Origin: Desulfovibrio sp.
Lineage (GTDB): Bacteria > Bacillota > Dethiobacteria > DTU022
DNA: 64,000 nucleotides
Assembly (NCBI GenBank): GCA_020060545.1
Contig: JAGUZX010000043.1
Coordinates: 21,020-85,019 of the forward strand
Direction: 5' to 3'
Numbering within the stretch: position 1 is the stretch's first letter; every line of letters starts with the position of its first letter. The position numbers and the translations under genes are program-made. Below are positions 42,128 through 57,097 of this stretch, in pieces. Under the pieces are notes generated by a model that was not told the DNA's origin, made no database searches, and was given only the letters and a program-made list of their open reading frames with translations.

Positions 42128-42192
42128 GCGATCGGATGTGAGAAAAAACAAAAAAAACCATGAAAAATATTAGATTATTTGGAAATCAGTAT

Positions 42193-42220
42193 TGACTACT
42201 GGCAAAAAAACGTGTAATAT
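42193..42220 (+). promoter_or_regulatory. Sigma-A-type promoter driving the riboswitch leader (TTGACT-16-TAATAT)
   Basis: Near-consensus -35 and -10 hexamers ~40 nt upstream of the GEMM aptamer. Confidence 0.5.
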
Positions 42221-42254
42221 GTTTTTTGAAGTAAGTTGATAATGCGAATAAAAC

Positions 42255-42342
42255 TCGTTTCAGGGCAAACCCGTTGAAAAGCGGGGACGCAAAGCCGACA
42301 GGCCTAAAGCGCTACTGCCAGGGCGGCTGGGTTACCGGGCGG
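42255..42342 (+). ncRNA. c-di-GMP-I (GEMM) riboswitch, copy 3
   Basis: CAGGGCAAACCCGUUGAAAAGCGGGGACGCAAAGCCGACAGGCCUAAAGCGCUACUGCCAGGGCGGCUGGGUUACCGGGCGG. Near-identical to the Vc2 consensus (GGCAAACC…GAAA…GGGACGCAAAGCC…GGCCUAAA…GGGUUACCG). Confidence 0.88.
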
Positions 42343-42345
42343 ATC

Positions 42346-42382
42346 AAAAATCCCAAGGAAAACCCTGGGGATTTTTATGTTT
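42346..42382 (+). terminator. Intrinsic terminator forming the riboswitch expression platform
   Basis: AAAAAUCCCAAGG-aaaa-CCCUGGGGAUUUUU hairpin followed by AUGUUUU. Confidence 0.6.
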
Positions 42383-42456
42383 TAGCATCAAACAGGATTG
42401 AGTTTTTTCGAGGTAATTTAGGCTACACTTCTTTTTTCTATAATTTACGACAGTTA

Positions 42457-42485
42457 TTGACAAAATAATCTGTCTGGTTCATAAT
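42457..42485 (+). promoter_or_regulatory. Second sigma-A-type promoter (TTGACA-17-CATAAT) immediately upstream of pilB
   Basis: Consensus -35 and a good -10 hexamer, 40 nt upstream of the pilB RBS (AGGGAGGAG). Confidence 0.5.
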
Positions 42486-42525: not shown

Positions 42526-45138
42526 ATGGTACGCTTTGTCCGCAAGCGATTGGGCGATATCCTTTTGGAAGCCGGCGTCATCACGGAACAGCAGCTGGAA
42601 GAAGTATTGCAGGAACAGGTCACCAGCCGCAAACGGATCGGGCGGCTGCTCATCGAAAAAGAGCTGATCACCGAGGAACACTTGATCGATATCCTCGAGC
42701 GGCAGCTGGGCATCTCCCAGGTCAATCTCTATAACTATAATATCGACCCGAAGGTCGCCTCGTTGATCCCCATGTCGCTGGCCCAACGCTACATGGTGAT
42801 TCCAATTGGCAGAAAAGAACAAAAGATAATCCTGGCCATGGCCGACCCGATGAATATTATCGCCCTCGATGATGTGGCTATGATTACCGGTTCAGAGATC
42901 ATCCCGGTAATCGCTTCGGAGAGTTCTGTCCAGCATGCCATCAACCAAATCTATGGCCTGCAGGAGTCCCTGGAGATGAGCCTGGAGGATAAGAAAGTCA
43001 AGACCAAAGAAGACGAGGAGGAGCTCGCACGGCTGCGCGCCCTGGTGGAAGACGCACCCATTGTCAAAGTAGTCAATTCGCTGATCCACCAGGCGGCCAG
43101 CGAAGGGGCCAGTGACATCCATATCGAGCCGTCGGGCAAAGGGGTCAGGGTGCGCATGCGCATCGACGGGATCCTGCATGACCTGATGTCGCCGCCGAAA
43201 GACACGCAACCCTTAATTGTTTCCCGGATCAAGATCATGGCCAACCTGGACATCGCAGAGCGAAGGCTTCCCCAGGACGGTCGGATCCAGATGCAGGTGG
43301 GCTTAAACGACATCAACCTCCGGGTCTCGACGATGCCCACCATTCACGGTGAGAAAGTAGTAATCCGGCTGCTGGAAAAAGACCGGGTGATCGTTTCCCT
43401 GGACAAGCTTGGTTTTAATGAGCACAATTTCGAACTTTACAAACAATTTTTATTAAACCACTCCGGCATGATCCTGGTCACCGGGCCAACCGGTTGCGGT
43501 AAAACCACGACCCTTTATTCAACCTTGAATTATCTCAACCGTCCGGAGGACAATATCATCTCCGTGGAAGACCCGGTGGAATACCGCCTGGACGGGGTCA
43601 ACCAGATCCAGGTCAACCCGCGCATCAATTTAAACTTTGCCAACGCCCTGCGTTCCATCCTCCGGCAGGATCCCAACATCATCATGATCGGTGAAATCAG
43701 GGATCTCGAGACGGCGGAAATCGCCACCCGCGCCGCGCTGACCGGGCACCTTGTCCTGAGCACCCTGCACACCAACGATGCCGTCCGGGCCATCTCCCGG
43801 CTGATCGATATGGGCGTGGAAAACTATTTGATTACCTCCTCCCTGGTCGGCGTGATCGCCCAGCGCCTGGTCAGGCTGATCTGCCCCCACTGCCGCGAGA
43901 GTTACGCGCTCCCGGACCGGGAAAAAATCTTATTTCAAAAGATTTTCCGAAAAGTACCTCTGCAAACGCTTTACCGGGGGGCGGGGTGCAAAAGCTGCAA
44001 CCAGACCGGCTACCGGGGCCGCATCGCCATCCACGAGGTGCTTTCGGTCAGCCCCGCGATCCGGCGCCTGGTCCTGGCGGGAGCGACAGTGGAGCAGCTG
44101 CAGCGGCAAGCCCTGGTGGAGGGGATGGTTACCCTTCTGGAGGATGGGCGCCGCCGGGTTGAAGAAGGAATTACTTCCCTGGAGGAAATCTTGCGGGTCG
44201 CTTTTAACAGCATGAATATCGACGGTGAAAGCAGGCATCTCGAACCGGCGGTTGAGGCGGTTGGAGCGGCTCAAACGGCTCCGGAGGCGCCGGCGGTCGG
44301 GCTTGTTCCGGAAAGCGGGCGCTTGACCGGCGCCGGGCCTGAAATAATGCCTGGACGCGCCGGCTTGCAGCAGCCTCCCGCCCGGGAAGAAAGCAGTTAT
44401 GTTTTTAACCAGCTTAAAAACATGAAAGGCGCGCCTGTAACGCCTGGTGTTACCGCCCGGGAAATGCAGCCGGAAAAAATAATCACGCCCGCCGTCGCCA
44501 TCAAATTAAAAGGCCCCGCCAGCGCCAAAGTCGGTGAAACCTATACCTGCCATTTCAGCGTGATCAATAAGGGGAATGTGCCTTTAACCGGGGTAACGGT
44601 AACGGATTCACTCTTCGGAGAGGATTGGAGTTACCCGATCGGAGAGCTTCCGCCTGGCGCCGAATCGGCGTTTGTGATGAACTTTACCACCGACAGGGGG
44701 CATGCCGGCAGCCTGGAGAATACGGCCACGGTTACGGGATTTTACCGGTCAACCCCTGTTACCGCCCAGGACAAGCAGATCATCGAGATTATCGATCTTG
44801 TCCAGCCCGGCCTGGCTATTGAAATCTCCGGTCCGGCCACAGCCATACCCGGGGAAACGGTAGTTTATAAATTCACGGTTACCAATTCTGGCAGTGTTCC
44901 CCTGAAAAGGGTCAAAGTCACGGATCCCCTTTTCGGCACCGGCTGGCGCAACTTCATCAACGCGATCGCGCCGGGACAATCGGTTAAATTCAACGTGGAG
45001 TATACCATTCCGGCAAGCGCCTATGCGCGGCTGAAGAATACGGCCACCGCCTCCGGATGGCATGAAGACGAGGTAACCGCGCAGGGGAGTCACACGATCG
45101 AGATTTTGTCCTGGCAAACCGGGACCGTGTCGAGGTGA
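42526..45138 (+). CDS. pilB: Type IV pilus assembly ATPase PilB/GspE with N-terminal MshEN-type c-di-GMP-binding motif and a C-terminal extension of two DUF11 repeat domains
   Basis: N-terminus KRLGDILLEAGVITEQQLEEVLQEQ fits the MshEN RLGxxLLxxGxIxxxxLxxxLxxQ motif, and a second partial copy follows. Walker A GPTGCGKTT, Asp and His boxes, and a tetracysteine Zn motif (CPHC…CKSC). The core ends …GITSLEEILRV and is followed by a ~300-aa in-frame extension with two ~100-aa DUF11-like repeats (…TVTNSGSVPL…V.VTD…). Confidence 0.85.
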   Translation: MVRFVRKRLGDILLEAGVITEQQLEEVLQEQVTSRKRIGRLLIEKELITEEHLIDILERQLGISQVNLYNYNIDPKVASLIPMSLAQRYMVIPIGRKEQKIILAMADPMNIIALDDVAMITGSEIIPVIASESSVQHAINQIYGLQESLEMSLEDKKVKTKEDEEELARLRALVEDAPIVKVVNSLIHQAASEGASDIHIEPSGKGVRVRMRIDGILHDLMSPPKDTQPLIVSRIKIMANLDIAERRLPQDGRIQMQVGLNDINLRVSTMPTIHGEKVVIRLLEKDRVIVSLDKLGFNEHNFELYKQFLLNHSGMILVTGPTGCGKTTTLYSTLNYLNRPEDNIISVEDPVEYRLDGVNQIQVNPRINLNFANALRSILRQDPNIIMIGEIRDLETAEIATRAALTGHLVLSTLHTNDAVRAISRLIDMGVENYLITSSLVGVIAQRLVRLICPHCRESYALPDREKILFQKIFRKVPLQTLYRGAGCKSCNQTGYRGRIAIHEVLSVSPAIRRLVLAGATVEQLQRQALVEGMVTLLEDGRRRVEEGITSLEEILRVAFNSMNIDGESRHLEPAVEAVGAAQTAPEAPAVGLVPESGRLTGAGPEIMPGRAGLQQPPAREESSYVFNQLKNMKGAPVTPGVTAREMQPEKIITPAVAIKLKGPASAKVGETYTCHFSVINKGNVPLTGVTVTDSLFGEDWSYPIGELPPGAESAFVMNFTTDRGHAGSLENTATVTGFYRSTPVTAQDKQIIEIIDLVQPGLAIEISGPATAIPGETVVYKFTVTNSGSVPLKRVKVTDPLFGTGWRNFINAIAPGQSVKFNVEYTIPASAYARLKNTATASGWHEDEVTAQGSHTIEILSWQTGTVSR

Positions 45139-45147: not shown

Positions 45148-46233
45148 TTGACTTTAGAGATTAACGATCTTTTAATGGAAACGGTGGCACAGGGCGCTTC
45201 GGACCTGCACATCTCGGTGGGGATCCCGCCGCTGCTGCGGCTGCACGGTGAGCTAGTGCCGATGTCCAGGCCCCCTTTGCGCCCGGCGGACACGGCCGGC
45301 CTGGTCCGGCAGGTGCTGACCGAAGCCCAAGCGGAAACTTTTTTGGCCAGCGGTGAACTGGATTTTTCCTTTTCCGCTCCCGGCGTGGGGAGGTTCCGGG
45401 TCAATGTTTACCGCCAGCGCGGCACCGCGGCGATGGCCATGCGGGCGGTGACCGGGGAGATCCCCTCCCTGGAAAGTTTGGGCCTGCCCGCGGTAACGGC
45501 GCAGCTGGTAAAATATCACAAGGGGCTGGTCCTGGTCACCGGCCCGACCGGCAGCGGCAAATCGACCACCCTGGCGGCGATGATCGACCTGATTAACCAG
45601 CAGCGCCGCTGCCATATTCTGACGCTGGAGGACCCGATCGAATACCTGCACCAGCATAAAAAAAGCATGGTCAACCAGCGCGAGATCGGCCAGGACAGCG
45701 CCGGGTTCGCCCGGGCGTTGCGTTCGGCCCTGCGCCAGGATCCCGATGTAATCCTGGTCGGCGAGATGCGCGACCTGGAGACGATCGCCATCGCCATCAC
45801 CGCCGCCGAGACCGGGCACCTGGTGCTGGCGACCCTGCATACCGTGGACGCCCCCCAGACGATCGACAGGGTGATCGATGTTTTTCCCCCGCACCAGCAG
45901 CAGCAGATCCGGGTCCAGCTGGCCAATACCCTGGTCGGGGTGCTCTCCCAGCGCTTGCTCAAGCGTCAAGGCGGGAAGGGGCGGGTGGCGGCGGTTGAAA
46001 TCCTGCTCAACAACGCGGCGGTGCGCAACCTGATCCGTGAAGGAAAGGTTTACCAGCTCTATTCGGTGATGCAGACCGGCTCGCGCAGCGGGATGCAGCT
46101 GATGGATGCAAGCCTGGTCAAGCTCTACCAGCAGGGTGCGATCGATTACGATACCGCCCTGGAGCATGCCGCGAAGCCGGAAAACATGAAAAACGTTATC
46201 TCCGCTCCGGGCGGAAGAGAGTACAACCTTTAG
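45148..46233 (+). CDS. pilT: Twitching-motility retraction ATPase PilT
   Basis: Walker A GPTGSGKST and the PilT AIRNLIRE-like motif (AVRNLIREGK). 361 aa. TTG start after GAGGTGA. Confidence 0.9.
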   Translation: MTLEINDLLMETVAQGASDLHISVGIPPLLRLHGELVPMSRPPLRPADTAGLVRQVLTEAQAETFLASGELDFSFSAPGVGRFRVNVYRQRGTAAMAMRAVTGEIPSLESLGLPAVTAQLVKYHKGLVLVTGPTGSGKSTTLAAMIDLINQQRRCHILTLEDPIEYLHQHKKSMVNQREIGQDSAGFARALRSALRQDPDVILVGEMRDLETIAIAITAAETGHLVLATLHTVDAPQTIDRVIDVFPPHQQQQIRVQLANTLVGVLSQRLLKRQGGKGRVAAVEILLNNAAVRNLIREGKVYQLYSVMQTGSRSGMQLMDASLVKLYQQGAIDYDTALEHAAKPENMKNVISAPGGREYNL

Positions 46234-46246
46234 GAGGAGTCGCTTC

Positions 46247-47476
46247 TTGTCGCCGAACTACCACTACAGGGCCAAGGATTGGGGAGGCAAAACCGTGGAG
46301 GGCGTTTACTCGGCAGTGAATTTACGCGAGGCGCTTGATCACCTCCGCGCCCGGGACCTGTTCGTATTGGATCTGAAAGAGCAGGCCGCTACCGCCGGGC
46401 GGTCGTCCCGGCGGGGGAGACCGGCCGGTCTCCTGAGCAGAAAAAAGGTGAAGAGCCGCGATCTGATGGTTTTCTGCCGCCAGTTCCACACGATGATCCA
46501 GGCCGGCACTACCGCTTTGCAGGGCCTCAAAGTCCTGGCCCAGCAGGCGGAGCATCCCTTACTCGCGGAGAAGCTTGACGCGGTTGCCGTCAGCGTGGAA
46601 CGGGGCAGCACGCTGGCCGAGGCTTTCGGGCGGCACCCGGCGGTTTTCCCGAGCATCCTCGTCAACATGGTCAACGCCGGCGAGGAAGGAGGGGTGCTCG
46701 ATACGGTCATGGACCGCCTGGCCGACCACTTTGAGAAACAGCACGACCTGGAGATGAAAATCAGTTCCGCCACGACCTACCCAATCGTGATCACAGCGCT
46801 GGCTTTTGCGGTGATGGCACTGATGGTCCTCTTCGTCCTGCCGCAGTTCGCCGCGATTTTCGAAGGCCTGGGCATGCGGCTGCCCTGGATCACCCGGGCG
46901 CTGCTGGAGGTAAGCCACTTTGTGATCAAGTATTGGTACCTGGTGCTGGGGCTCCTGGCTGGACTGGTGGTCGCATTGGCGTATTACATTAAAACTGAAC
47001 GGGGCAGGCGGGCCTACGACCGCGCCCGCCTCAAGGTGCCTCTGTTCGGCCCGATCTACCGGAAAGCGGTGGTGGCCCGTTTTGCGCGCACCCTGGGCAC
47101 GCTCATCGCCAGCGGGGTGGACCTGATCAACGCCCTGGAGCTGGTCGAGCGCGTGATCGACAACCGTATTTACGCGGAAACGCTGGCCCGGACCCGGGAC
47201 GTGATCCGCCAGGGACAGGCCATAGCGCTGCCGCTGGCCGCCAGCGGCCTCTTCCCGCCGATGCTGGTGGAGATGGTCCACGTCGGCGAAGAAACGGGCG
47301 CCCTGGACAACATGCTCTCCCGCACCGCCGACTTTTACGAGCAGGAGGTCACCTTCTTCCTGGATCGGCTGGGCACGATCATCGAGCCTCTGCTTCTAAT
47401 CGGGATCGGCATATTCGTCGGGCTGCTCCTGGTTTCCATTGTCATGCCGATGTTCCAGATCTACGAGATGATTTAG
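46247..47476 (+). CDS. pilC: Type IV pilus platform protein PilC (GspF family)
   Basis: Two T2SSF domains. 409 aa. Confidence 0.9.
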   Translation: MSPNYHYRAKDWGGKTVEGVYSAVNLREALDHLRARDLFVLDLKEQAATAGRSSRRGRPAGLLSRKKVKSRDLMVFCRQFHTMIQAGTTALQGLKVLAQQAEHPLLAEKLDAVAVSVERGSTLAEAFGRHPAVFPSILVNMVNAGEEGGVLDTVMDRLADHFEKQHDLEMKISSATTYPIVITALAFAVMALMVLFVLPQFAAIFEGLGMRLPWITRALLEVSHFVIKYWYLVLGLLAGLVVALAYYIKTERGRRAYDRARLKVPLFGPIYRKAVVARFARTLGTLIASGVDLINALELVERVIDNRIYAETLARTRDVIRQGQAIALPLAASGLFPPMLVEMVHVGEETGALDNMLSRTADFYEQEVTFFLDRLGTIIEPLLLIGIGIFVGLLLVSIVMPMFQIYEMI

Positions 47477-47566
47477 CAGAAAAGACAGTTCAAGGTTAAA
47501 CCCTTCCAAGGGAAACCTTTTTACATAGAGAGAGAGAAATAATAGACGGGAAAGGAGGTGAAAATG

Positions 47567-47953
47567 ATGATTTTGAAGATAGCGCAGCTTTTGCGCTGCC
47601 TGCACAGGGAGGAGAAAGGTTTCACCTTAATCGAACTGCTTGTTGTTATCGCCATCCTCGGCGTCCTGGCCGCGATCGCCGTGCCGCTGGTGTCGGCCCG
47701 GATTGAAGAGGCAAGAGGAGCGGCCAATACGGCCAACCTGTCGCTGCTGCAGAAGGCGGTTGAGCTTTACCGGGCGGATACCGGCGTGCTGCCGGCTGTA
47801 GGCGCAGCTTTCCAGACCGACTTAGTCACCCAGCCTGCTAATGTTACCGGCTGGAAAGGCCCATATATAAGGGAGGCAGTTTCTCCACCTGCAGGTTACG
47901 GGGACTATACCATGAGTGATACTGGAGTTGTGTCTAATGCAGTTGCACCGTAA
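47567..47953 (+). CDS. pilA: Type IV major pilin (prepilin; class III signal peptide)
   Basis: Leader followed by G/FTLIELLVVIAILGVLAAIAVP, with E at +5. ATG 6 nt after GGAGGTG. Followed by a strong terminator. Confidence 0.85.
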   Translation: MILKIAQLLRCLHREEKGFTLIELLVVIAILGVLAAIAVPLVSARIEEARGAANTANLSLLQKAVELYRADTGVLPAVGAAFQTDLVTQPANVTGWKGPYIREAVSPPAGYGDYTMSDTGVVSNAVAP

Positions 47954-48000
47954 GAGTAGCTAAACAGCATGTGTACAGCTTGAGAGTAGAGATGATAAGA

Positions 48001-48033
48001 GCGGCGGCAGCGCTGCTGCCGCCGCTATATTTA
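48001..48033 (+). terminator. Rho-independent terminator/attenuator after pilA
   Basis: Perfect 11-bp stem GCGGCGGCAGC-gc-GCUGCCGCCGC followed by UAUAUUU. Confidence 0.75.
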
Positions 48034-48161
48034 AATCCGAAAATTGATTGCCGCGTAGCGGCCGCAATAATAGCTCTGGTGCATCATTGAGCCCATGTTT
48101 TTTGGCCGTGGTGCCGGTATTGAATCCTTTTCTCCCCCTTTATATGGAGAGGCAAATAAGG

Positions 48162-48623
48162 ATGGTGGTTGCGGTGCGCGAAAATAAAATCCTGTTGATG
48201 AAAAACGAGGGCGGATATACCTTTGTGGAACTGATCGTGAGCATCACCATCCTTGCCATCGTCACCGTCCCGATCCTTTCTCTCTTCGTCAGCGGATACA
48301 CCGTGCTGGCTTCGGCAGGGAGGCAGACGATCGCCGCCAACCTCTGCCGGGAGAAGATCGAGGCGGTCAAGGTGAACGGGTACGACTTCTACATGCAGTA
48401 TTTCGAGCAGCACGGGGCGAACCTTTACCGGGAAGAAGAGAACCCGGTGGAGGGGTTTCCCGTTTTCCGGCGCGTGACCAGGGTCTGGGAAGAAAATGTG
48501 TTGCCCGACCCTCTCACCCCGGATTTCCAGATCAGCCTGCTGAAAATCATTGTCCAGGTGTTCTGGGAGCATCAGGGCGCGGAGCGCGCGGTGCAGATGG
48601 AAACCAACCTGGCCAGAAGGTGA
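48162..48623 (+). CDS. Minor pilin/pseudopilin (prepilin-type N-terminus)
   Basis: …NEGG/YTFVELIVSITILAIV with Glu at +5. Confidence 0.7.
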   Translation: MVVAVRENKILLMKNEGGYTFVELIVSITILAIVTVPILSLFVSGYTVLASAGRQTIAANLCREKIEAVKVNGYDFYMQYFEQHGANLYREEENPVEGFPVFRRVTRVWEENVLPDPLTPDFQISLLKIIVQVFWEHQGAERAVQMETNLARR

Positions 48624-48627
48624 AACC

Positions 48628-49110
48628 GTGAAGAGAAGCAAGCAAGACAAAGGGTTTACCCTGGCTGAAGTCTTGATGGTTGTGGCTATTCTCGGCCTGG
48701 TCATAGCCGGCATTTACAGCTTTTACTTTTCCGGCCTGCGCAGCTGGCACAAAGGCGTGGACCGGATGGACTACCAGCAGAGCGCCCGCATCGCCATGGA
48801 TAAAATCGTCAAGGAGCTGCAGTTTGCCAACCAGGTTACCGTGGGCGGGGGCGGAACGGAACTCCGCTACAGCTTCGTTAACGACGAAAATAATTACGTC
48901 TTCAAACGGGTAGGGCCGGAGAACGAAGACCTGGTATTAATTTACGAGCGCGGCGACGGCTCTTCGACACAGCTTAAAATAGCCCTGGGCATCACCGGTC
49001 TCGACTTTTCCATCGATGCCCGGAACTATGTCCGGATTACCGTCAGCGCCGGCGCCGGCGCGGAGCGGGTGACCCTGCACAGCAGTGTTCGTCCCAGGAA
49101 TATACCTTGA
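48628..49110 (+). CDS. Minor pilin/pseudopilin (prepilin-type N-terminus)
   Basis: GTG start. KG/FTLAEVLMVVAILGLVIA. Confidence 0.7.
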   Translation: MKRSKQDKGFTLAEVLMVVAILGLVIAGIYSFYFSGLRSWHKGVDRMDYQQSARIAMDKIVKELQFANQVTVGGGGTELRYSFVNDENNYVFKRVGPENEDLVLIYERGDGSSTQLKIALGITGLDFSIDARNYVRITVSAGAGAERVTLHSSVRPRNIP

Positions 49111-49140
49111 TTTTCCGGCGGATCAAAGGAGATTGATGCA

Positions 49141-50298
49141 ATGGACCGGTTTTTCGGTGCGGAGCGGGGTTCGGTTCTGGTCATGGTGTTGGTATTTTCC
49201 GCCGCCCTGCTGATCCTCGGCGGAGCTCTGATCACCTACGCCGTGAACGACAACTTTATCGCGCGCCACCAGGAGCATGACACGCGGCTCTACTATATCG
49301 CCGAAGCCGGGATCGAAGCGGGCGTGGCAGCTTTACGCAAGAATTACTCCTTTCACCGCAATATCGAACAGGAAATCGGCGGTGGAAGCTACCACGCCAC
49401 CATTATCATTCCTCCCCACGCCGATTACCCGGAGCTGCCCGCGGGGCAGCGCATGGTTATCTCCACCGGCCGCCTGGAAGGCAAGGCGCTGACCCTAAAA
49501 GTGATCGTCTCGCTGAACGACCTCTATTCCAAGGCGCTGATGGTCTCCAGTAAGCTGCATCTTACGAATACTACGATCAACGGCAACCTGCATTACAACG
49601 AATTGCTGAAAGTGCTCCCCGGGACGACCGAGATCCGGGGAGACCTGAGCTACCCCCAGGGCAAGGCTCCGGAAATCGTCCCCCCGGCCGTACTGACCGT
49701 CACTGGGCAGACCAGCATCGCACCGCCCATCCCTATCCCTACCATTGATTTCGACAGCTTTATCAAGGACGTGGATATAACTTATACCGGCAGCCAGACT
49801 TGGACTACGGCGCCGCCGTTTAAGAAAATACTGGTTAAGGGCGACTTGACCGTCAGGCCTGGGAAAGATCAGACCTTCGACTTTAACGGGGTGATTATCG
49901 TCCAGGGCGATCTAACAATCAATCCCCAAAAGGGCGCCAATACTTTCCTCAACGGCTCTTTTGTCGCGGGCGGCGGGATCAAGGTCCAGCCCGATGCCGA
50001 CATAAACCCGGCAATGAATGAAAAGAAAGTAATTTTTGTCTCCAACCGGTATATCAACATCTCTACCACCGGCAGCACCGCCCCCGCCCTGTTCGGCGGG
50101 AGCGTGCTTCTTTTTTCCAAGGGGGATATCAATATCTCCGGAAAAACAGACGATAAGCTGCAGATATTCGGCACGATTATCGCGGAAGGCACCTTCTACC
50201 TGACAGACGCCGTGCTGACTTACGACCCCGATGTTTTCATCGATTCCGATTATATCCCCGGATTACAGGTGGTGATCAGGGAATGGCTGAAACTCTAG
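49141..50298 (+). CDS. PilX-N-domain minor pilin-like protein with large beta-rich C-terminal domain
   Basis: ERGSVLVMVLVFSAALLILG is a PilX_N-type hydrophobic N-terminus. 385 aa. Confidence 0.65.
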   Translation: MDRFFGAERGSVLVMVLVFSAALLILGGALITYAVNDNFIARHQEHDTRLYYIAEAGIEAGVAALRKNYSFHRNIEQEIGGGSYHATIIIPPHADYPELPAGQRMVISTGRLEGKALTLKVIVSLNDLYSKALMVSSKLHLTNTTINGNLHYNELLKVLPGTTEIRGDLSYPQGKAPEIVPPAVLTVTGQTSIAPPIPIPTIDFDSFIKDVDITYTGSQTWTTAPPFKKILVKGDLTVRPGKDQTFDFNGVIIVQGDLTINPQKGANTFLNGSFVAGGGIKVQPDADINPAMNEKKVIFVSNRYINISTTGSTAPALFGGSVLLFSKGDINISGKTDDKLQIFGTIIAEGTFYLTDAVLTYDPDVFIDSDYIPGLQVVIREWLKL

Positions 50299-50369
50299 CA
50301 GGCCCGGCGGAAGAAACCGGTGCAGCCACGGCGCATAATCTGCTTCTCCAGCAGGCGGCGCCGCGAAAA

Positions 50370-51440
50370 ATGCGGTTAAAAGGGCGTTACTCCAAGATCG
50401 GCCTTGACCTCGGCTCGTCCCAGATTAAGCTGGCCCAGTTAAAGCACAAAAACGGGCAAATCTACCTCTGGCAGTACGGGATTTATCCCCTGCCCGAAGG
50501 GGCGCTCGAAGGGGGTAAGGTGGAAGATCCGGGCTTGCTCGCCGAACGCTTGCAGTGGGTCCTCCAGAGGCGCCGCTTTCATAAACGGCGGGTGAACCTT
50601 TGCGTGGGCAGCCAGAACGTAGTCCTGCGCCAGGTGCTCCTGCCGGAGATGCACCCCAAGGAAATCCCCTCTGCCGTCCGCTGGGAGGCGGAGAAGCAGG
50701 TCATGATGCCCCTGGAGGAGACCGTGGTCGACTACCTTTACCTGGGCAGGCGGCTAGTCGATGATAAAATGATGATCGAGCTGGCGCTGGTCGCGGTGCC
50801 CAAGGAAGTGGTTAACGGGTATCTCGAGGCGGTTACCGGCGCCGGTTTTTACCCCGAGGCGATCGAAATAGAACCCCTGGCCCTGCAGCGGATGCTGAAC
50901 CTGGAACTGCCCGGCGGCGCTGCCGGGGATCCGGCCATCTCCATGCTGCTGGATTTGGGGGCGGAATACAGCAACCTTGTCCTCCTGAAGAACGGCCATT
51001 TCCGCTTTGCCCGCACCCTGAGCATCGGGGTGGATCATTTTTGCCGCCGTGTGGCCGAGGCGGGGCAGTTAAGCCTGGAAACAGCGCGGCGCCAAATTTT
51101 CAGCCGGGATCCTTTTTCCCTGGATGGTTTTCAGGATGTTGCCGATGACCTGGCCAACCAGGTCAGCCGTTCGATAGAATATTATGCCAATAATATTTGG
51201 GACGGCAAGCGACAAGGATCGGAGCAAGAGATGGAAATCAACCGGATGTTATTCTGCGGCGGAGGGGCCGCGATAGATCGGCTGGCTTCTTTCCTGGGTT
51301 TTGAGCTTAAGGTTGAACCGAAGCTGCTCAGCCCTCTGGAATTTATCCAGGCCGGTAAGAAGCTATACCAGCCGGACCTGGAGCAGGAGGAAAACATGCT
51401 TAACGTGGCGGTGGGCCTGGCCTTGCGGGGGTGGCGCTGA
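50370..51440 (+). CDS. pilM: Type IV pilus assembly protein PilM (actin-like ATPase fold)
   Basis: KIGLDLGSSQIKLAQL N-terminal motif. The start is chosen at the internal ATG; the upstream in-frame extension lacks an RBS. Confidence 0.75.
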   Translation: MRLKGRYSKIGLDLGSSQIKLAQLKHKNGQIYLWQYGIYPLPEGALEGGKVEDPGLLAERLQWVLQRRRFHKRRVNLCVGSQNVVLRQVLLPEMHPKEIPSAVRWEAEKQVMMPLEETVVDYLYLGRRLVDDKMMIELALVAVPKEVVNGYLEAVTGAGFYPEAIEIEPLALQRMLNLELPGGAAGDPAISMLLDLGAEYSNLVLLKNGHFRFARTLSIGVDHFCRRVAEAGQLSLETARRQIFSRDPFSLDGFQDVADDLANQVSRSIEYYANNIWDGKRQGSEQEMEINRMLFCGGGAAIDRLASFLGFELKVEPKLLSPLEFIQAGKKLYQPDLEQEENMLNVAVGLALRGWR

Positions 51441-51991
51441 TGAAAACCGAAATTAACCTGCGCCCGAGGGCGTTCGTCGTTTCCAGGGAGTTTTACTGGC
51501 CCAGGGTCCTGGGTACCCTTGCCGGCTTGCTGCTCATCCTGGCCGTGGCGGGAGGCTCTGTTTTACTCTATCTATACCAGGTTAACCTGGAAGCTGAAAC
51601 CGCCCTGCTCAGAGGAAATGTCGAGCAGCTCCGGGTTGAAGCGGCTCCGATCGCGGCCATAGAAGAGGAGCTCCGTTCGTTTAAAGACAGGGCGCAGCTG
51701 AAAGACAGGTTGATCGGGTCAAGTTCTTTATCCTGGTCCGGCATGCTGCAGGAGGTAGATGACCTGGCGGAGCGGGGCGCGATTGATCTGGAACATCTGG
51801 CCGGCAGCGCCGGCGGCGGGATAGTCATCCGGGGTAACGGCTTGACCATGCGCGGTGTGGCGGCTTTCCTGCAAGACCTGGAGAAGCTCAATTTTCTTCG
51901 TGATGTGGTCCACCTGTTCATCTCTCTAAATACAATGGACAGATTCGGCTTTGAAGCCAAAGCCAGTCTGACCGATGGGGGCTCGAAATAG
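51440..51991 (+). CDS. pilN: Type IV pilus assembly protein PilN
   Basis: ATGA overlap with the pilM stop. MKTEINLRP, a single TM helix and a coiled coil. Confidence 0.75.
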   Translation: MKTEINLRPRAFVVSREFYWPRVLGTLAGLLLILAVAGGSVLLYLYQVNLEAETALLRGNVEQLRVEAAPIAAIEEELRSFKDRAQLKDRLIGSSSLSWSGMLQEVDDLAERGAIDLEHLAGSAGGGIVIRGNGLTMRGVAAFLQDLEKLNFLRDVVHLFISLNTMDRFGFEAKASLTDGGSK

Positions 51992-51993
51992 TC

Positions 51994-52536
51994 TTGGTTC
52001 AACAAAAACAGCCTGTTTCCAAACAACTGAAAATACTGCTGCTGCTGGCCGTTGTTGCGGTTGGTTTTCTGGCCTGGCGCTATTATTGGAACCCTAAGCT
52101 CCAATTACTGGCCGGGTTAAGGCTGGAACAGGCGCAGCTGCGCGGCGAATACGCCCGTCTTGACGAAAAGATAAAGGTTCAAAAGCAAGTGGAGCAGGAA
52201 TGGCGGCGGTGGCGGGAAGAAGGAGAACAGTTGAAGGTTCTGCTCCCTTCGATACAGGAGCTGCCCCGGGTTTTGGGAAACCTGGAGGATATACTGGGGC
52301 GGTACCCGCTTTTGATTGAATCTTTCGCCTCCGGTGAATTGAGAAAAGACCCGGGTTATGTCGTAGTTCCCTTATCATTGCGTGTTTCGGGTCCTGACGC
52401 GGAACTGATGGCTCTTTTAGCGGAGTTGGAACAATTTCCTCACCTGCTCCTGATCGAGCAGGTTGCCTGGCAGAAGCAACCGGAGCAGTCAATCCTTAAT
52501 CTAAACTTTGCCCTTGTTTTACTACCGGAAGGGTAG
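51994..52536 (+). CDS. pilO: Type IV pilus assembly protein PilO-like
   Basis: TM helix plus coiled coil. Positionally and structurally PilO. Confidence 0.65.
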   Translation: MVQQKQPVSKQLKILLLLAVVAVGFLAWRYYWNPKLQLLAGLRLEQAQLRGEYARLDEKIKVQKQVEQEWRRWREEGEQLKVLLPSIQELPRVLGNLEDILGRYPLLIESFASGELRKDPGYVVVPLSLRVSGPDAELMALLAELEQFPHLLLIEQVAWQKQPEQSILNLNFALVLLPEG

Positions 52537-52559
52537 GTTAATGCATTAATGGGGCGGTA

Positions 52560-53033
52560 ATAAGGAAAAACGGCCAATGTGGCTTTTCTTATGTGGAATT
52601 GCTGTGCGTCATTGCCATCCTGACCGTGCTCTATCTGCTTGCTGTGCCGTACGTGTTTAATATCATACATAAGTCAAAGCTGGAGGCGGCGGCCTGGCGG
52701 TTGGTTTCAGACATGCGCCTGGCGCGCCAGGCGGCGATAACCACCGGCAAAACCACCCGGATCGAGTTCCGGGAAGCGGCCGGCGACTACCGGATTTTCC
52801 TCCCCGAGAAGACGGTCAGGGTGCGGCTGCCGGACAGTATAGTGTACGCCGGAAATAATTTTCCCCTCGTGCAGGGCGTAAGGAAGGTCAGTTTTACCCC
52901 CACCGGGGCTCCCAGCCAGGGAGGCACCGTCATTTTTAAAAACAGGCGGGGCGATAAGCTGTATGTGGTCATGACCCCGGCCACCGCCCGGATCAGGGTC
53001 TCCAAGGTCCCCCCCGCCCACTGGGATCAGTAA
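52560..53033 (+). CDS. GspH/FimT-like pseudopilin; prepilin N-terminus lacks a canonical start codon
   Basis: The in-frame sequence from 52560 reads (ATA)RKNGQCG/FSYVELLCVIAILTVL. The only canonical start, GTG at 52593, lies after the prepilin cleavage motif. Confidence 0.55.
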   Translation: MRKNGQCGFSYVELLCVIAILTVLYLLAVPYVFNIIHKSKLEAAAWRLVSDMRLARQAAITTGKTTRIEFREAAGDYRIFLPEKTVRVRLPDSIVYAGNNFPLVQGVRKVSFTPTGAPSQGGTVIFKNRRGDKLYVVMTPATARIRVSKVPPAHWDQ

Positions 53034-53214: not shown

Positions 53215-54279
53215 TTGAACGATCGTCTGCGGCAATTGCAGGAAAAGCTCGCGGCGGAGGATATCGACGCACTGCTGGTCACCCAACCTGCCAACCGGCG
53301 TTATTTGAGCGGTTTCGATGGGACCAGCGGCGTGCTTCTGGTCGGCCGGGAGAAAGCTTTTTTAGTCACCGATTTTCGCTATCTGGAACAGGCCGAAAAG
53401 CAGGCGCCGCACTGCAAGCTGTGTCCATGGAAAGATGATTTGCCAAAAAGCCTGGCGCCGCTGGTGGAGGCGGAAAGGTGGCAAAAAATCGGCTTCGAGG
53501 AGAAGCACCTTACCTGTGCTGCCTACCGCGAATTGGCGGCAGGCATTTCTACTGAACTGGTTGGCCGGGATGGCCTGGTCGAGGATCTGCGGCTGATCAA
53601 GAGCGAATCGGAACTCGCCATTTTACGCCGCGGCGCCGCCTGCCTGGACCGGGCTTTCGAGCATATCTGTAAGTTTATCAGGCCCGGCCTGACGGAGCAG
53701 GCGGTTTCCCTGGAGCTTGAATACCGGCTGCGGTGTCTCGGAGCCGAAGGCATTTCCTTCCGCTATATCGTTGCCTCGGGTGAGCGGGGGGCGATGCCCC
53801 ACGGCGTGGCTTCACCGAAGACGCTATCCGCAGGGGAGCTGGTCACCATGGATTTCGGCGCCGTGTTCGACGGCTACAACACCGATATGACCCGCACCGT
53901 GGCCTTGGGCGAACCTGACGCCCGGCAGCGCCAGATTTACGAAACAGTCCGGGCGGCCCAACAAAAGGCGCTCCTAGGGATCAAACCCGGTATGACGGGA
54001 AAAGAAGCGGACGCGCTGGCCCGGGAGCCGATTAAAGAAGCCGGATTTGGAGAATACTTTGGGCATGGGCTGGGTCACGGGGTCGGCCTGGATTACCACG
54101 AACAGCCGGTCCTGTCACCGCGCAGCGAGACAATCCTGGCCCCGGGCATGGTTGTCACCGTAGAACCGGGCATCTATATCCCCGGTTGGGGAGGGGTCCG
54201 CATCGAAGAGATGGTGCTGATTACGGCGCAAGGGGCGGAAATGCTGACTCTCAGCACCCGGGAGTTGGCGGTAATCTAA
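53215..54279 (+). CDS. Xaa-Pro aminopeptidase (M24B family)
   Basis: Creatinase-N fold plus M24 metal ligands (…[13 protein letters not shown]…). TTG start after GGAGGAAG. Confidence 0.88.
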
Positions 54280-54302
54280 ATACAAGGGAGCGGCAGCAAC
54301 CG

Positions 54303-54860
54303 ATGATTTCTACGAACGATTTTCATACCGGTCTTACCGTTGAACTGGACGGTGAACTCTATGTCGTTGTTGAATTCCAGCATGTCAAGCCGGGCAAGGG
54401 ATCCGCTTTTGTCCGCTCCCGGCTGAAAAATTTACGCACCGGCGCGGTTACCGAACGGACCTTCCGCGCCGGGGAGAAAGTTTCCAGGGCCCACCTGGAA
54501 CGCAGGCTTATGGAATATCTCTATAGCAGCGCAGATGAGTTTTTCCTGATGGACCTGGAAACCTACGAGCAGATCACCTTGAACCGGGCGCAGGTGGGCG
54601 ACGGGGTTAAATATTTAAAAGAAAACGAAAAACTGAACGTGGTCATGCACGGTGAAAAGGTAGTCGGAGTGGAACTGCCCAACACCGTGGAGTTAAAGGT
54701 AGTCAAGACGGATCCGGGAGTGAAGGGCGATACCGCCTCCGGCGGATCCAAGCCGGCAGTTCTGGAAACAGGCCTGGTAGTGCAGGTGCCCTTTTTTATC
54801 AACGCCGGTGATATTTTAAGGATTGACACCCGCAGCGGTGCATATATCGAGCGGGTTTAG
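54303..54860 (+). CDS. efp: Elongation factor P
   Basis: [43 protein letters not shown] matches the EF-P N-terminus; the conserved Lys loop is present. 185 aa. Confidence 0.95.
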
Positions 54861-54896
54861 CGGAATAATATGGTATGTATTTTGAAGGGAGGCATT

Positions 54897-55379
54897 ATGG
54901 TGGCGGAAGATTTAAAGGAAAGGGTGGCCTACCTGCGCGGGCTGGCCGAGGGCTTGGGGATTGGTGAAGGGAGCAAGGAAGAAAAAGTTCTCCAAAAAGT
55001 AATCGATATCCTGGAAAAGACCGCGGCGGAAATCGACCAGCTTAGAACCGATTTTGAAGAGTTGTTCGAGTATACCGAAGCCATCGACGAGGACCTGACG
55101 GAGCTGGAAGAGGATTTCTACGAGGAAGAAGACGACGACTTCGACGATGATGACGAGGAAGAAGACGATTTTGACGGGGGCTTTTCCGTGGAATGCCCCA
55201 ATTGCCGGGAAGTGGTCGTGGTGAGCGACGACCTCCTGAACCAGGATTCGGCCATTGAAGTAACCTGCCCCGGCTGCGGGGAGGTCGTCCTGGTTGACGA
55301 CGAGAAGTGGGAAGAGGAGGATTTGGAAGAGCTTTTGGACGAAGAGGAGAAAGACGCGGGAGAAAAAAAAGACGGGTAG
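54897..55379 (+). CDS. Acidic protein with C-terminal CxxC…CxxC zinc ribbon
   Basis: Glu/Asp-rich. CPNC…CPGC. Sits between efp and spoIIIAA. Confidence 0.6.
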   Translation: MVAEDLKERVAYLRGLAEGLGIGEGSKEEKVLQKVIDILEKTAAEIDQLRTDFEELFEYTEAIDEDLTELEEDFYEEEDDDFDDDDEEEDDFDGGFSVECPNCREVVVVSDDLLNQDSAIEVTCPGCGEVVLVDDEKWEEEDLEELLDEEEKDAGEKKDG

Positions 55380-55409
55380 GGTTTTAAATCACGACGGCTG
55401 GCTGATCAT

Positions 55410-55448
55410 CCCCCTCTTCCATCGCGGCGGAGGGGGATTTTTTTTATT
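55410..55448 (+). terminator. Rho-independent terminator
   Basis: CCCCCTC-ttccatcgcggcg-GAGGGGG followed by ATTTTTTTTATTT. Confidence 0.7.
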
Positions 55449-55451
55449 TCA

Positions 55452-55483
55452 TAAATATCGGAAGGCGGCAGGTCATATACATT
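55452..55483 (+). promoter_or_regulatory. Candidate sigma-E-type promoter for the spoIIIA operon
   Basis: AAATAT (-35-like) then 15 nt then CATATACAT, which resembles the sigma-E -10 consensus CATACAnT. Confidence 0.3.
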
Positions 55484-55542
55484 AATACAGGCCGGGGTAG
55501 AAGGCAAGCTTTGACGAGCTTTCAGGGGGTCGTGAAAAGACT

Positions 55543-56523: not shown

Positions 56524-56551
56524 GGGCTAACAGAAGGGGAGGCTTGGGGAA

Positions 56552-57082
56552 GTGGGGCAACTAATCTTGAAAGTGGTCGGGGCCGTCATTGTGATCGCCG
56601 CCGCATCGGCCTGCGGCGAACAGAAGGCCCGCGCGCTCGCCCTGCGGGTGCAGCATCTCCAGCAGTTCCGGCGCGCGCTGGCACTTCTGGCCGCGGAAAT
56701 ATCCTTTACCCGCCCGGTGCTGCCCTATGCCTTTAAAACTGCGGCGGAGCGATCCTCTTTTCCAGCCCGTGAGCTCCTCCTTGAGGCCGCCGTCATGCTC
56801 CTGGCCGGAGGCGAACTGACCGCCCGGGAGATCTGGAAAAAGGCGGTGGACCGCGTTTTGCCCGAGACCTGCTGTACCGCGGCGGACCGGGAGATCATCG
56901 AGAGCCTTGGAGCGTCCCTCGGCGTATGCGAGCAGGAAGGCCAGTTGAACCAGATCCGGTTAACCATGTCGCAACTGGATTGCGCCCTGGAAGAGGCTCT
57001 CGGTCAGAAGCACCGCAGCGAAAAGATGTGGCGTTACCTCGGTTTTGCCGGTGGAGCGGCGCTGGTCATTTTTTTCTTGTAA
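56552..57082 (+). CDS. spoIIIAB: Stage III sporulation protein AB
   Basis: Position in operon and family similarity. 176 aa. Confidence 0.8.
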   Translation: MGQLILKVVGAVIVIAAASACGEQKARALALRVQHLQQFRRALALLAAEISFTRPVLPYAFKTAAERSSFPARELLLEAAVMLLAGGELTAREIWKKAVDRVLPETCCTAADREIIESLGASLGVCEQEGQLNQIRLTMSQLDCALEEALGQKHRSEKMWRYLGFAGGAALVIFFL

Positions 57083-57097
57083 AGCGGGGGAGAGCAC

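What the first reader, a model, noticed from the sequence alone, without database searches (positions are those of the whole stretch)
42526..45138. PilB ATPase with MshEN-type c-di-GMP-binding N-terminus and an unexpected C-terminal pair of DUF11 repeat domains
The N-terminal 24-mer RLGDILLEAGVITEQQLEEVLQEQ matches the MshEN c-di-GMP-binding motif. A second degenerate copy follows (RIGRLLIEKELITEEHLIDILERQ). After the normal end of the secretion-ATPase fold, the same frame continues for ~300 aa through a Pro/Ala linker into two ~100-aa DUF11-type domains. These are normally found on surface proteins and have no obvious role on a cytoplasmic motor.
Basis: partly seen in the sequence, partly recalled or inferred. 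Interest (0 to 1): 0.65.

Follow-up and report, generated by a model that had tools for sequence, protein, structure and literature searches.

The report
Pilus motor ATPase with surface-protein tail
A real, lineage-conserved type IV pilus assembly motor (PilB) carries on its cytoplasmic C-terminus two Ig-like domains borrowed from cell-surface adhesin stalks, and its operon also sits behind a c-di-GMP riboswitch; the fusion is genuine and unusual, but what the tail does is still unknown.

Summary
Window 42526-45138 (+) is one uninterrupted 870-codon ORF. It encodes an MshEN-type c-di-GMP motif (residues 8-60), a GSPII/MshEN domain, a complete PilB/GspE ATPase, a ~95-residue disordered acidic linker and two Ig-like CLIPPER_2 (DUF7507/DUF11) domains.

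The fusion is not a frameshift. The same architecture occurs in 13 other protein clusters and 9 species-representative genomes (anaerobic Bacillota MAGs), always in one frame and in the same pilB-pilT-pilC-pilin...pilM locus. The tail evolves under purifying selection (omega about 0.1-0.3, against 0.04-0.09 for the ATPase core).

The tail has no signal peptide, TM segment or sorting signal, so it should stay cytoplasmic. Its closest free-standing relative is a sortase-anchored (LPxTG) two-domain surface protein. The isopeptide lysine typical of that domain family has been lost. Domain number varies (1, 2 or 3), and a sister lineage has lost the tail, so it is accessory.

The tail's function is inferred only: a tethered cytoplasmic interaction module. 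I rate this a new variant of a known kind, of moderate interest.

The parts
42192..42220 (+). promoter-like site (TTGACT-17-TAATAT) about 34 nt upstream of the riboswitch aptamer
   Evidence: a consensus match only (9/12)
42254..42339 (+). c-di-GMP-I riboswitch aptamer (RF01051)
   Evidence: 67.6 bits against a gathering score of 35, full model 1-87. The same element lies upstream of pilB in L005, L007, L009, L013 and L016.
42345..42384 (+). intrinsic terminator hairpin (AAAAAUCCCAAGG/CCUGGGGAUUUUU) plus U-tract; the riboswitch expression platform
   Evidence: sequence; the hairpin is present in both the MFE and centroid folds
42457..42485 (+). second promoter-like site (TTGACA-17-CATAAT, 11/12) downstream of the terminator
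   Evidence: a consensus match only, function untested
42526..45138 (+). pilB-CLIPPER fusion gene, 870 aa
42547..42705 (+). residues 8-60: MshEN_N c-di-GMP-binding module (two 24-mers plus a 5-residue spacer)
   Evidence: NF053729 60.5 bits; motif definition; four helices predicted
42706..42969 (+). residues 61-148: MshEN/GSPII domain (PF05157)
   Evidence: PDB homologues PilF and Geobacter PilB
43045..44196 (+). residues 174-557: T2SSE ATPase (N2D plus CTD) with Walker A GPTGCGKT, Asp box, Walker B, His box and tetracysteine C453/C456/C488/C491
   Evidence: invariant columns
44206..44481 (+). residues 561-652: acidic Pro/Ala-rich disordered linker
   Evidence: pLDDT 30-49; no hydrophobic segment; no detectable Ig1 remnant
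44482..44793 (+). residues 653-756: CLIPPER_2 Ig-like domain A (equivalent to Ig2 of relatives); triad L/D/N
44800..45108 (+). residues 759-861: CLIPPER_2 Ig-like domain B (equivalent to Ig3 of relatives); triad I/D/N
45148..46233 (+). pilT-like retraction ATPase
   Evidence: T2SSE, 361 aa; syntenic in L001-L009
46247..47476 (+). pilC platform protein (T2SSF x2)
47558..47953 (+). major pilin candidate (N_methyl + T2SSG)
48048..50298 (+). two N_methyl minor-pilin-like genes and one gene with a sub-threshold PilX_N match (19.9 bits against a cutoff of 25.5)
50283..53033 (+). pilM, a pilN-position gene, pilO and a GspH-like pseudopilin

Best explanation
The gene encodes a genuine type IV pilus extension ATPase (PilB/GspE superfamily) of a spore-forming anaerobic Bacillota lineage. 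It heads a pilB-pilT-pilC-pilin-...-pilMNO operon.

Shown:
- The ATPase has all catalytic and zinc motifs.
- Its first 60 residues carry the tandem MshEN c-di-GMP motif.
- A c-di-GMP-I riboswitch with an intrinsic terminator lies in the leader. The pilus is therefore probably controlled by c-di-GMP twice, at transcript elongation and at the motor.
- After the ATPase fold comes a ~95-residue acidic disordered linker and two Ig-like CLIPPER_2 (DUF7507/DUF11) beta-sandwich domains.
- The closest free-standing relative of this two-domain unit is a sortase-anchored surface protein.
- In PilB the unit has no signal peptide, membrane segment or sorting signal, and it has lost the isopeptide lysine.
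- The fusion is conserved, under purifying selection, variable in domain number, and lost in a sister lineage.

Inferred:
- The tail stays in the cytoplasm, with six copies per hexamer hanging from the motor on long flexible tethers.
- It is an accessory, tethered protein-binding or scaffolding module. For example, it could hold the extension motor at or near the pilus base or a partner, or bias exchange with PilT. It is not part of catalysis.

My confidence that this is a real cytoplasmic PilB fusion built from surface-protein domains is about 0.9. My confidence in the tether/adaptor mechanism specifically is about 0.35.
For: - Single ORF and domain content.
- Fusion conserved: 13 other clusters of 914-939 aa with the same Pfam architecture and 9 GTDB genomes with core and tail in one frame. 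Fragments from independent assemblies span the junction.
- Synteny: pilT, pilC, pilin and pilM downstream and a HAD gene upstream.
- Catalytic and Zn motifs invariant.
- No TM-like segment (maximum 19-residue hydropathy in any tail 1.59) and tail pI 4.1-5.5.
- AF2 of the tail: disordered linker plus two confident beta-sandwiches. Foldseek returns only generic Ig-like tandems.
- dN/dS: core 0.04-0.09; Ig domains 0.08-0.41.
- Nearest stand-alone relative P0001 has a signal peptide, two CLIPPER_2 domains and LPHTG plus an anchor; 38% identity over 208 aa, E 5e-39, collinear.
- The CLIPPER family is described as an extracellular adhesin stalk with a K/D/N isopeptide triad (PMC12617251). In 4,336 adhesin repeats K, D and N occur at 67%, 96% and 96%, but the window domains have L/D/N and I/D/N.
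- Riboswitch. Terminator.
- MshEN motif rules and the tolerance to deviation seen in PilF GSPII-B.
Against: - No partner for the tail was identified. No gene co-varies with the tail in fused versus unfused loci.
- The full-length AF2 model was too poor to show docking.
- No single Ig domain is kept by all fused proteins: the window lacks Ig1, and P0056, P0060 and P0063 keep only Ig1. This argues against one specific binding surface.
- Fused P0053 is sister to unfused P0064 with 100% bootstrap, so the tail is dispensable.
- omega is 2-4 times higher than in the core, and the tail's GC3 is lower.
- For c-di-GMP: motif 2 has E46 at the conserved turn-glycine position, which fails the relaxed pattern [GAS]. 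Binding is untested.
- PilB TIGR02538 scores 622.6, below its equivalog cutoff of 675.65.
Confidence: 0.6

Rival explanations
1. Neutral or near-neutral passenger. An old in-frame fusion between pilB and a surface-protein gene fragment persists because it is harmless. The tail has no specific function.
For: The tail has been lost cleanly in sister lineages (P0053 and P0064 group with 100% bootstrap; no tail gene in L013, L015 or L016). Domain number is 1, 2 or 3, with no domain universally retained. The isopeptide triad has decayed. omega is several-fold higher than in the core, and GC3 is lower. No co-varying partner gene was found.
Against: The ORF has been kept open and foldable across proteins whose tails are only 35-42% identical. 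omega is 0.08-0.41, well below 1, at dS of about 0.5-1.5. AF2 gives pLDDT above 90 for both domains. The one-domain variants P0056 and P0063 end in acidic-aromatic peptides (...EDRF...EDDRL) of the kind seen at the end of most three-domain tails, which suggests selection on tail features.
Confidence: 0.22
2. Cis-regulatory or auto-inhibitory appendage. The Ig domains or the acidic linker fold back onto the ATPase ring or the MshEN domain and gate ATPase activity or PilC/PilM docking, possibly in a c-di-GMP-dependent way.
For: The long flexible linker allows the tail to reach any face of the hexamer. PilB activity is known to depend on N-terminal c-di-GMP sensing and on external partners (PMC5013675).
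Against: There is no predicted ordered contact, since the linker stays below pLDDT 50 in the full-length model, although that model is poor. The modular gain and loss of individual Ig domains is hard to reconcile with a precise intramolecular docking site.
Confidence: 0.13
3. Assembly or sequencing artefact. A frameshift or a missed stop near 44200 has fused pilB to a separate secreted DUF11 gene.
For: Only the a priori oddity of surface-type domains on a cytoplasmic motor. A few database gene calls show the tail alone.
Against: Those short calls start inside the ATPase C-terminal domain and are truncations at contig ends or at alternative starts. The same frame is seen in 9 genomes and in 13 other clusters. 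There is no signal peptide or hydrophobic segment after any internal Met. No Ig-like coding sequence exists in other frames. Purifying selection acts across the junction.
Confidence: 0.01
4. The tail is exported or surface-exposed, for example by cleavage and release or by moonlighting of PilB, and acts as an adhesin stalk like its relatives.
For: The domain family is otherwise extracellular (PMC12617251). The closest relative is a cell-wall-anchored protein.
Against: The tail has no signal peptide, TM segment, LPxTG motif or anchor. It is C-terminal to a soluble hexameric ATPase. The isopeptide lysine, which is useful for mechanical and proteolytic stress outside the cell, has been lost.
Confidence: 0.02

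Closest known systems
MshE/PilB-type type IV pilus assembly ATPases with an MshEN c-di-GMP-binding N-terminus (V. cholerae MshE, PDB 5HTL; Geobacter PilB 5TSG/5ZFR; Thermus PilF 6F8L)
   Same: Same order of N-terminal c-di-GMP four-helix module, GSPII domain, N2D and CTD. Walker A/B, Asp box, His box and tetracysteine motifs are present. The N-terminal 157 residues hit these PDB chains at E 1e-17 to 1e-44. The gene sits in a pilT/pilC/pilin/pilMNO context.
   Different: This protein has a 310-residue C-terminal extension (disordered linker plus two Ig-like domains) that none of the PilB/PilF/MshE chains matched in the PDB search carries (chain lengths 566-588 aa for the PilBs; PilF is long because of extra N-terminal GSPII domains). 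Motif 2 has Glu at the turn-glycine position. Its score is below the TIGR02538 equivalog cutoff.
CLIPPER / CLIPPER_2 (DUF11 / DUF7507) isopeptide stalk domains of surface fibrillar adhesins (PMC12617251; PDB 9IFR)
   Same: Significant Pfam and NCBIfam matches (84.5 and 52.3 bits). Seven-to-nine-strand Ig-like sandwich. The TNxGN and VTD...NTAT signature is present. Tandem arrangement. 38% identity to an LPxTG-anchored two-domain protein.
   Different: There is no signal peptide or sorting signal, and the domains are fused to a cytoplasmic ATPase. The isopeptide Lys is replaced by Leu or Ile, so the cross-link cannot form at the canonical site.
Thermus thermophilus PilF (lineage-specific domain accretion on a PilB motor)
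   Same: A clade-restricted addition of extra non-catalytic domains to the extension ATPase, with individually dispensable modules (PMC11731258).
   Different: PilF adds GSPII domains at the N-terminus, and these bind c-di-GMP. Here unrelated Ig-like domains are added at the C-terminus, with no known ligand.
c-di-GMP riboswitch-controlled type IV pilus genes of Clostridioides difficile
   Same: A c-di-GMP riboswitch in the leader of a Gram-positive type IV pilus operon. Papers retrieved (e.g. PMC6200980, PMC6366702) deal with c-di-GMP riboswitches in C. difficile and contain the terms 'type IV pili' and 'pilA1'. That the C. difficile pilA1 switch is a class II ON switch is from my own knowledge; I did not read it in those papers.
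   Different: Here the riboswitch is class I (RF01051). It precedes pilB rather than the pilin gene, its sign (ON or OFF) is undetermined, and it is combined with an MshEN motif on the motor itself.
C-terminal beta-barrel tandem of transglutaminases and protein 4.2 (best Foldseek PDB hits)
   Same: Two consecutive Ig-like beta-sandwich domains at the C-terminus of an intracellular enzyme (E 2e-11 to 1e-8). That these proteins are intracellular is from my own knowledge.
   Different: Only 12-15% identity and low TM-scores (0.25-0.29). This is fold-level resemblance, not homology that can be asserted.

Membership tests
PilB/GspE-type type IV pilus extension ATPase | T2SSE ATPase fold with Walker A, Asp box, Walker B and His box | tested here: met
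   PF00437 465 bits, res 174-557. GPTGCGKT, EDPVEY, DPNIIMIGEIRD and TGHLVLSTLHT fall in invariant columns.
PilB/GspE-type type IV pilus extension ATPase | Tetracysteine zinc motif in the CTD | tested here: met
   C453, C456, C488 and C491 are invariant in 16 sequences.
PilB/GspE-type type IV pilus extension ATPase | Score above the NCBIfam equivalog cutoff for PilB (TIGR02538) | tested here: not met
   622.6 bits against a cutoff of 675.65. GspE TIGR02533 scores 612.8 against 630.25. PilB is the best hit, but the protein is a divergent Firmicute-type member.
PilB/GspE-type type IV pilus extension ATPase | Genomic context with pilT, pilC, pilin and pilM/N/O | tested here: met
   conserved in L001-L009, L016 and L018.
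MshEN c-di-GMP receptor module | [quoted passage not shown] | tested here: inconclusive
   Motif 1 is an exact match and the spacer is exactly 5 residues. Motif 2 matches 9 of 11 specified positions (L to I at position 2, G to E at position 10). NF053729 scores 60.5 bits, above its cutoff of 38. E46 fails the relaxed [GAS] rule, and it fails the four-glycine filter used for the published logo.
MshEN c-di-GMP receptor module | Physical binding of c-di-GMP | not testable with these tools
   Needs ITC or DRaCALA on residues 1-150. Supporting context: three c-di-GMP riboswitches in the window show that the organism uses the messenger.
CLIPPER_2 / CLIPPER (DUF7507 / DUF11) | Sequence match above the Pfam gathering score | tested here: met
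   PF24346 84.5 bits against 27; PF01345 41.5 against 24.6; TIGR01451 52.3 against 24.
CLIPPER_2 / CLIPPER (DUF7507 / DUF11) | Ig-like CnaA-type beta-sandwich fold | tested here: met
CLIPPER_2 / CLIPPER (DUF7507 / DUF11) | Lys/Asp/Asn intramolecular isopeptide triad | tested here: not met
   Window domains are L/D/N and I/D/N, against K 67%, D 96% and N 96% in 4,336 adhesin repeats. Among all fused tails only P0053 Ig3 keeps K/D/N. The family is known to include members without the bond.
CLIPPER_2 / CLIPPER (DUF7507 / DUF11) | Extracellular location (signal peptide plus a sorting or anchor signal) | tested here: not met
   No N-terminal signal peptide, no hydrophobic segment, and no LPxTG. Compare P0001, which has all three.
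c-di-GMP-I riboswitch (RF01051) | Covariance-model score above gathering, full-length aptamer, located in a 5' leader with an expression platform | tested here: met
   67.6 bits against 35, model positions 1-87. The terminator hairpin and U-tract start 6 nt after the aptamer. The element is conserved upstream of pilB in 5 related loci.

The most novel reading that the evidence does not exclude
[quoted passage not shown] It has shed its isopeptide cross-link and forms six flexible arms on the type IV pilus extension motor. These arms act as a built-in adaptor that positions the motor or governs PilB/PilT exchange at the pilus base. That would be a previously unrecognised structural and regulatory element of Gram-positive pilus machines, layered on dual c-di-GMP control (riboswitch plus MshEN).
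Probability: 0.3. Interest if true: 0.65.

Novelty: new variant of a known kind. Interest (0 to 1): 0.45.

Why it matters
PilB motors are among the best-studied secretion ATPases, and their known accessory domains are N-terminal. A conserved C-terminal appendage made from adhesin-stalk Ig domains shows that a module regarded as strictly extracellular can be reused in the cytoplasm. It also gives a concrete handle (tail deletion, pull-downs, cryo-ET) on how extension motors are positioned or exchanged in monoderm pilus machines, which are poorly understood. The carriers are mostly uncultured anaerobic Bacillota; one cluster includes a protein from 'Candidatus Darwinibacter acetoxidans', whose species name points to acetate oxidation. 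In such organisms pili may matter for aggregation, though that is my inference and not something tested here. Combining a c-di-GMP riboswitch with an MshEN-bearing motor also provides a compact natural example of two-level control by one second messenger.

Tried and rejected
1. 'Remnant of a deleted first Ig domain' in the window's linker. MAFFT suggested it, but an Ig1-specific HMM scores the linker -1.4 bits, rank 423 of 1,000 against shuffles. Rejected.
2. Hidden Ig1 in another frame, or other CLIPPER copies elsewhere in the window. None found.
3. Tail-only word-index search. It returned only stand-alone DUF11 proteins and missed both the self-hit and the fused relatives, so it could not be used to argue absence. 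The full-length search found them.
4. Exhaustive profile search with the tail. The list was swamped by giant multi-repeat adhesins. It is useful only for showing family size and that the fusion is rare.
5. Full-length AF2. pLDDT 56.6 with the ATPase core unresolved, so there is no information on tail docking.
7. Search for a partner gene by comparing fused and unfused loci. There is no consistent difference, apart from a prepilin peptidase gene inside the unfused L016 cluster.
8. Monophyly of fused PilBs. Rejected (0 of 100 bootstraps). The window protein's own placement is unresolved (48%).
9. Sign of the riboswitch (ON or OFF). I could not decide it from alternative pairings by eye. Left open.
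10. Literature. No paper in the searchable library describes a PilB-DUF11/CLIPPER fusion.
Full report
OBSERVATION

Window 42526-45138 (+) is a single 870-codon ORF with an ATG start and no interruption. A strong Shine-Dalgarno sequence (AGGGAGGAG) precedes it.

Pfam finds T2SSE (465 bits, res 174-557), MshEN (70.5 bits, res 61-148), two DUF7507 stretches (84.5 bits, E 5.9e-24), DUF11 (41.5 bits) and CARDB. NCBIfam gives PilB (TIGR02538) as the best whole-protein match, at 622.6 bits against a cutoff of 675.65. It also finds the dedicated MshE-type c-di-GMP motif model NF053729 at 60.5 bits against 38, over residues 8-60, and the DUF11-type repeat TIGR01451 at 52.3 against 24.

IS THE FUSION REAL?

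A full-length search returned the protein itself (P0040) and 13 further 90%-identity clusters of 914-939 aa (P0041-P0053). All have the same precomputed architecture of MshEN + T2SSE + CARDB/DUF7507, most of them with DUF11 as well. They are 52-55% identical over the full length and about 64-71% identical in the ATPase core. Sources label them as Dethiobacteria, Firmicutes or Bacillota MAGs.

Shorter cluster members annotated as separate 'membrane' or 'DUF7507' proteins begin inside the ATPase C-terminal domain and read straight through the linker. They are truncated gene calls, and they independently confirm the reading frame.

A scan of one genome per species found nine genomes (L001-L009) in which core and tail lie in the same frame. 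Where the contig extends far enough, pilT, pilC, a pilin gene and pilM follow. L004 and L009 also have the same upstream HAD-phosphatase gene as the window.

Nei-Gojobori estimates among the less saturated pairs give omega of 0.04-0.09 for the core, 0.08-0.41 for the Ig domains, and 0.11-0.64 for the linker. The frameshift explanation is excluded. The tail is a translated, selected part of the protein.

ANATOMY

Walker A, the Asp box, Walker B, the His box and the tetracysteine motif fall in invariant alignment columns.

The tail has no hydrophobic segment. The maximum 19-residue Kyte-Doolittle mean in any tail is 1.59, always in beta-strand-like sequence. The tails are acidic, pI 4.1-5.5.

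AlphaFold2 of the tail with a 14-sequence alignment gives about 86 disordered residues and then two beta-sandwich domains at pLDDT mostly above 90. Foldseek against the PDB returns only generic tandem Ig-like domains: transglutaminase and protein 4.2 C-terminal barrels, integrin alpha legs, ciliary central-apparatus chains, and RbmA.

Relatives have three Ig domains. The window protein has the equivalents of Ig2 and Ig3 behind a longer linker. An apparent Ig1 remnant in the linker is not statistically supported. P0056, P0060 and P0063 are complete proteins that keep only Ig1.

ORIGIN OF THE TAIL

DUF11 and DUF7507 were recently renamed CLIPPER and CLIPPER_2. They are described as CnaA-like stalk domains of surface fibrillar adhesins carrying a Lys/Asp/Asn intramolecular isopeptide bond (PMC12617251).

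An exhaustive profile search shows how large and surface-oriented the family is. There are 26,279 representatives at E <= 0.001, and the top hits are proteins of 1,000-7,000 aa with up to 36 repeats. Only one fused PilB representative appears in the best 150.

The nearest free-standing relative of the tail, P0001, has a signal peptide, a poly-Pro spacer, two CLIPPER_2 domains, an LPHTG motif, a hydrophobic anchor and a basic tail. That makes it a sortase substrate. It aligns collinearly with the window's two domains at 38% identity over 208 aa, E 5e-39.

I mapped the triad through an HMM of 4,336 adhesin repeats, in which K, D and N occur at 67%, 96% and 96%. The window domains are L/D/N and I/D/N. 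Main-clade domains are S/A/x, K/D/x and L/A/N. Only P0053 Ig3 retains K/D/N.

The tail is therefore a descendant of surface-protein stalk domains that has lost its secretion signals, its anchoring signals and its cross-link. That is consistent with cytoplasmic residence.

EVOLUTION

On a neighbour-joining tree of the ATPase core, the main fused clade has 98% support. Fused P0053 groups with unfused P0064 at 100%. The window protein's position near unfused P0054, P0058 and P0062 is unresolved at 48%.

Unfused relatives have no separate tail gene. In L013, L015 and L016 the next gene starts 28-80 nt after the pilB stop; in L015 and L016 it is a PilT-like T2SSE ATPase. Fused and unfused genes occupy the same chromosomal slot: Iso_dh and HAD upstream in L016 and the window, HAD upstream and pepQ and efp downstream in L018 and the window.

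Because the tails are homologous and similarly organised, the simplest history is one gain followed by at least one loss. The tail is accessory.

c-di-GMP

The published site is two 24-residue motifs joined by a 5-residue spacer (PMC5013675). Motif 1 (R8-Q31) is an exact match, and the spacer (VTSRK) has the right length. Motif 2 (R37-Q60) keeps the ligand-contacting Arg, Gly, Leu, Leu and Gln. It has Ile for Leu at position 2, and Glu46 at the turn-glycine position (VcMshE G47).

G47 is described as structural, required for the alpha3-alpha4 turn. It was also one of four glycines used to filter the published logo. All solved homologues aligned here keep a glycine there.

For comparison, Thermus PilF GSPII-B binds c-di-GMP at 6 nM despite non-consensus first residues. 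GSPII-A, which matches only 45% of key positions in motif II, does not bind (PMC11731258). The window's motif 2 matches 9 of 11 specified positions. The full-length AF2 model still predicts four helices with E46 in the turn.

Binding is likely but unproven.

Independently of the protein motif, Rfam finds a full-length c-di-GMP-I aptamer at 42254-42339 (67.6 bits against a gathering score of 35). A canonical terminator hairpin and U-tract follow immediately at about 42345-42384. The same aptamer precedes pilB in the fused loci L005, L007 and L009 and in the unfused loci L013 and L016. It is a clade trait and is independent of the tail.

Whether the switch is ON or OFF could not be determined. 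A near-consensus promoter-like site downstream of the terminator (42457-42485) might allow riboswitch-independent expression.

MECHANISM

Shown: this is a PilB-type motor in a complete pilus operon, with a probable c-di-GMP sensor on the protein and a c-di-GMP riboswitch in the leader. It carries a conserved, selected, signal-less C-terminal appendage made of a disordered acidic tether and Ig-like domains.

Inferred: six such tails per hexamer remain in the cytoplasm and act as tethered interaction or scaffolding modules.

No partner was identified. Synteny gives no candidate, and the full-length model is uninformative. The modular variation (Ig1 only, Ig2+Ig3, or all three) argues for a generic or redundant role rather than a unique docking surface.

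Two rivals stay open: a nearly neutral passenger, and a cis-regulatory appendage. Artefact and export are effectively excluded.

NOVELTY

No paper in the searchable library describes this architecture. Database records simply call these proteins PilB, GspE or TadA-family ATPases.

It is a new variant of a well-known motor, not a new kind of system. Interest is moderate: the topology is surprising and the fusion is robust, but it is dispensable and no function can yet be demonstrated.

Noticed in passing
window 42254-42384 (+): A c-di-GMP-I riboswitch aptamer followed directly by an intrinsic terminator lies in the pilB leader, about 190 nt upstream of the start codon. It is conserved upstream of both fused and unfused pilB in related loci (L005, L007, L009, L013, L016). 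The ON/OFF sign is undetermined.
   Followed up: partly
window 12875-12954 (+) and 14908-14997 (+): There are two more c-di-GMP riboswitches (RF03167, 70.5 bits; RF01051, 79.4 bits). The first precedes a camelysin/TasA-like Peptidase_M73 gene (12972-13604). The second overlaps the listed start of a transglutaminase-like gene (14968-16140). Both hint at a c-di-GMP regulon of surface or matrix proteins.
   Followed up: partly
relatives P0043-P0047, P0050-P0052, P0056, P0063 (C-termini): Many fused PilBs end in a short acidic-aromatic peptide after the last Ig strand (...EDSF, ...GDYL, ...EDRF, ...EDRY, ...EGLF, ...EDDRL). The one-domain variants P0056 and P0063 end the same way, so it may be a C-terminal docking motif. 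The window protein (...SWQTGTVSR) lacks it.
   Followed up: no
P0056, P0060, P0063 (683-708 aa): These are complete PilB variants that carry only the first Ig domain, the one missing from the window protein. Across the family the tail therefore exists as Ig1 alone, Ig2+Ig3, or Ig1+Ig2+Ig3.
   Followed up: partly
L013 1599-7536: In the genome with the closest unfused PilB (P0054), a sortase-pilus-like cluster sits just upstream of the riboswitch and pilB. It contains a 753-aa VWA + CLIPPER + GBS104-like Ig protein, two Peptidase_M73 genes and a sortase. So surface CLIPPER genes can lie within a few kb of pilB, which makes them a plausible source for the fusion.
   Followed up: no
window 47558-53033; L016 14824-15585: Among the ten ORFs scanned across window 45148-53033, none matched a prepilin peptidase (Peptidase_A24). 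The unfused relative L016 has one directly after the pilin gene. In the window's genome the peptidase must be encoded elsewhere.
   Followed up: no
window 44206-45138 compared with 42526-44205, 45148-47476: Third-position GC is lower in the tail (0.64) than in the ATPase core (0.74), pilT (0.81) or pilC (0.82). This fits weaker codon selection or a different origin for the tail.
   Followed up: no
window 53215-63822: pepQ (M24 peptidase), efp and a spoIIIAA-AB-AE-AF sporulation operon lie downstream of the pilus cluster. alaS, hypF and feoB lie upstream. The window is chromosomal DNA of an endospore-forming Firmicute with 56% GC.
   Followed up: partly
window 8073-9659 (+): A 528-aa ORF has a DDE_Tnp_1-associated domain (44 bits), which suggests a transposase-related gene between housekeeping genes.
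   Followed up: no
L018 4831-6556: A group II intron (RF02001, 151 bits; RF01998) with its reverse-transcriptase/maturase ORF is inserted a few kb upstream of the fused pilB of P0050.
   Followed up: no
tool behaviour: The word-indexed protein search with the tail alone returned neither the query's own protein (P0040) nor any fused relative. The full-length query found them all. Negative results from that tool with repeat-rich queries should not be read as absence.
   Followed up: yes
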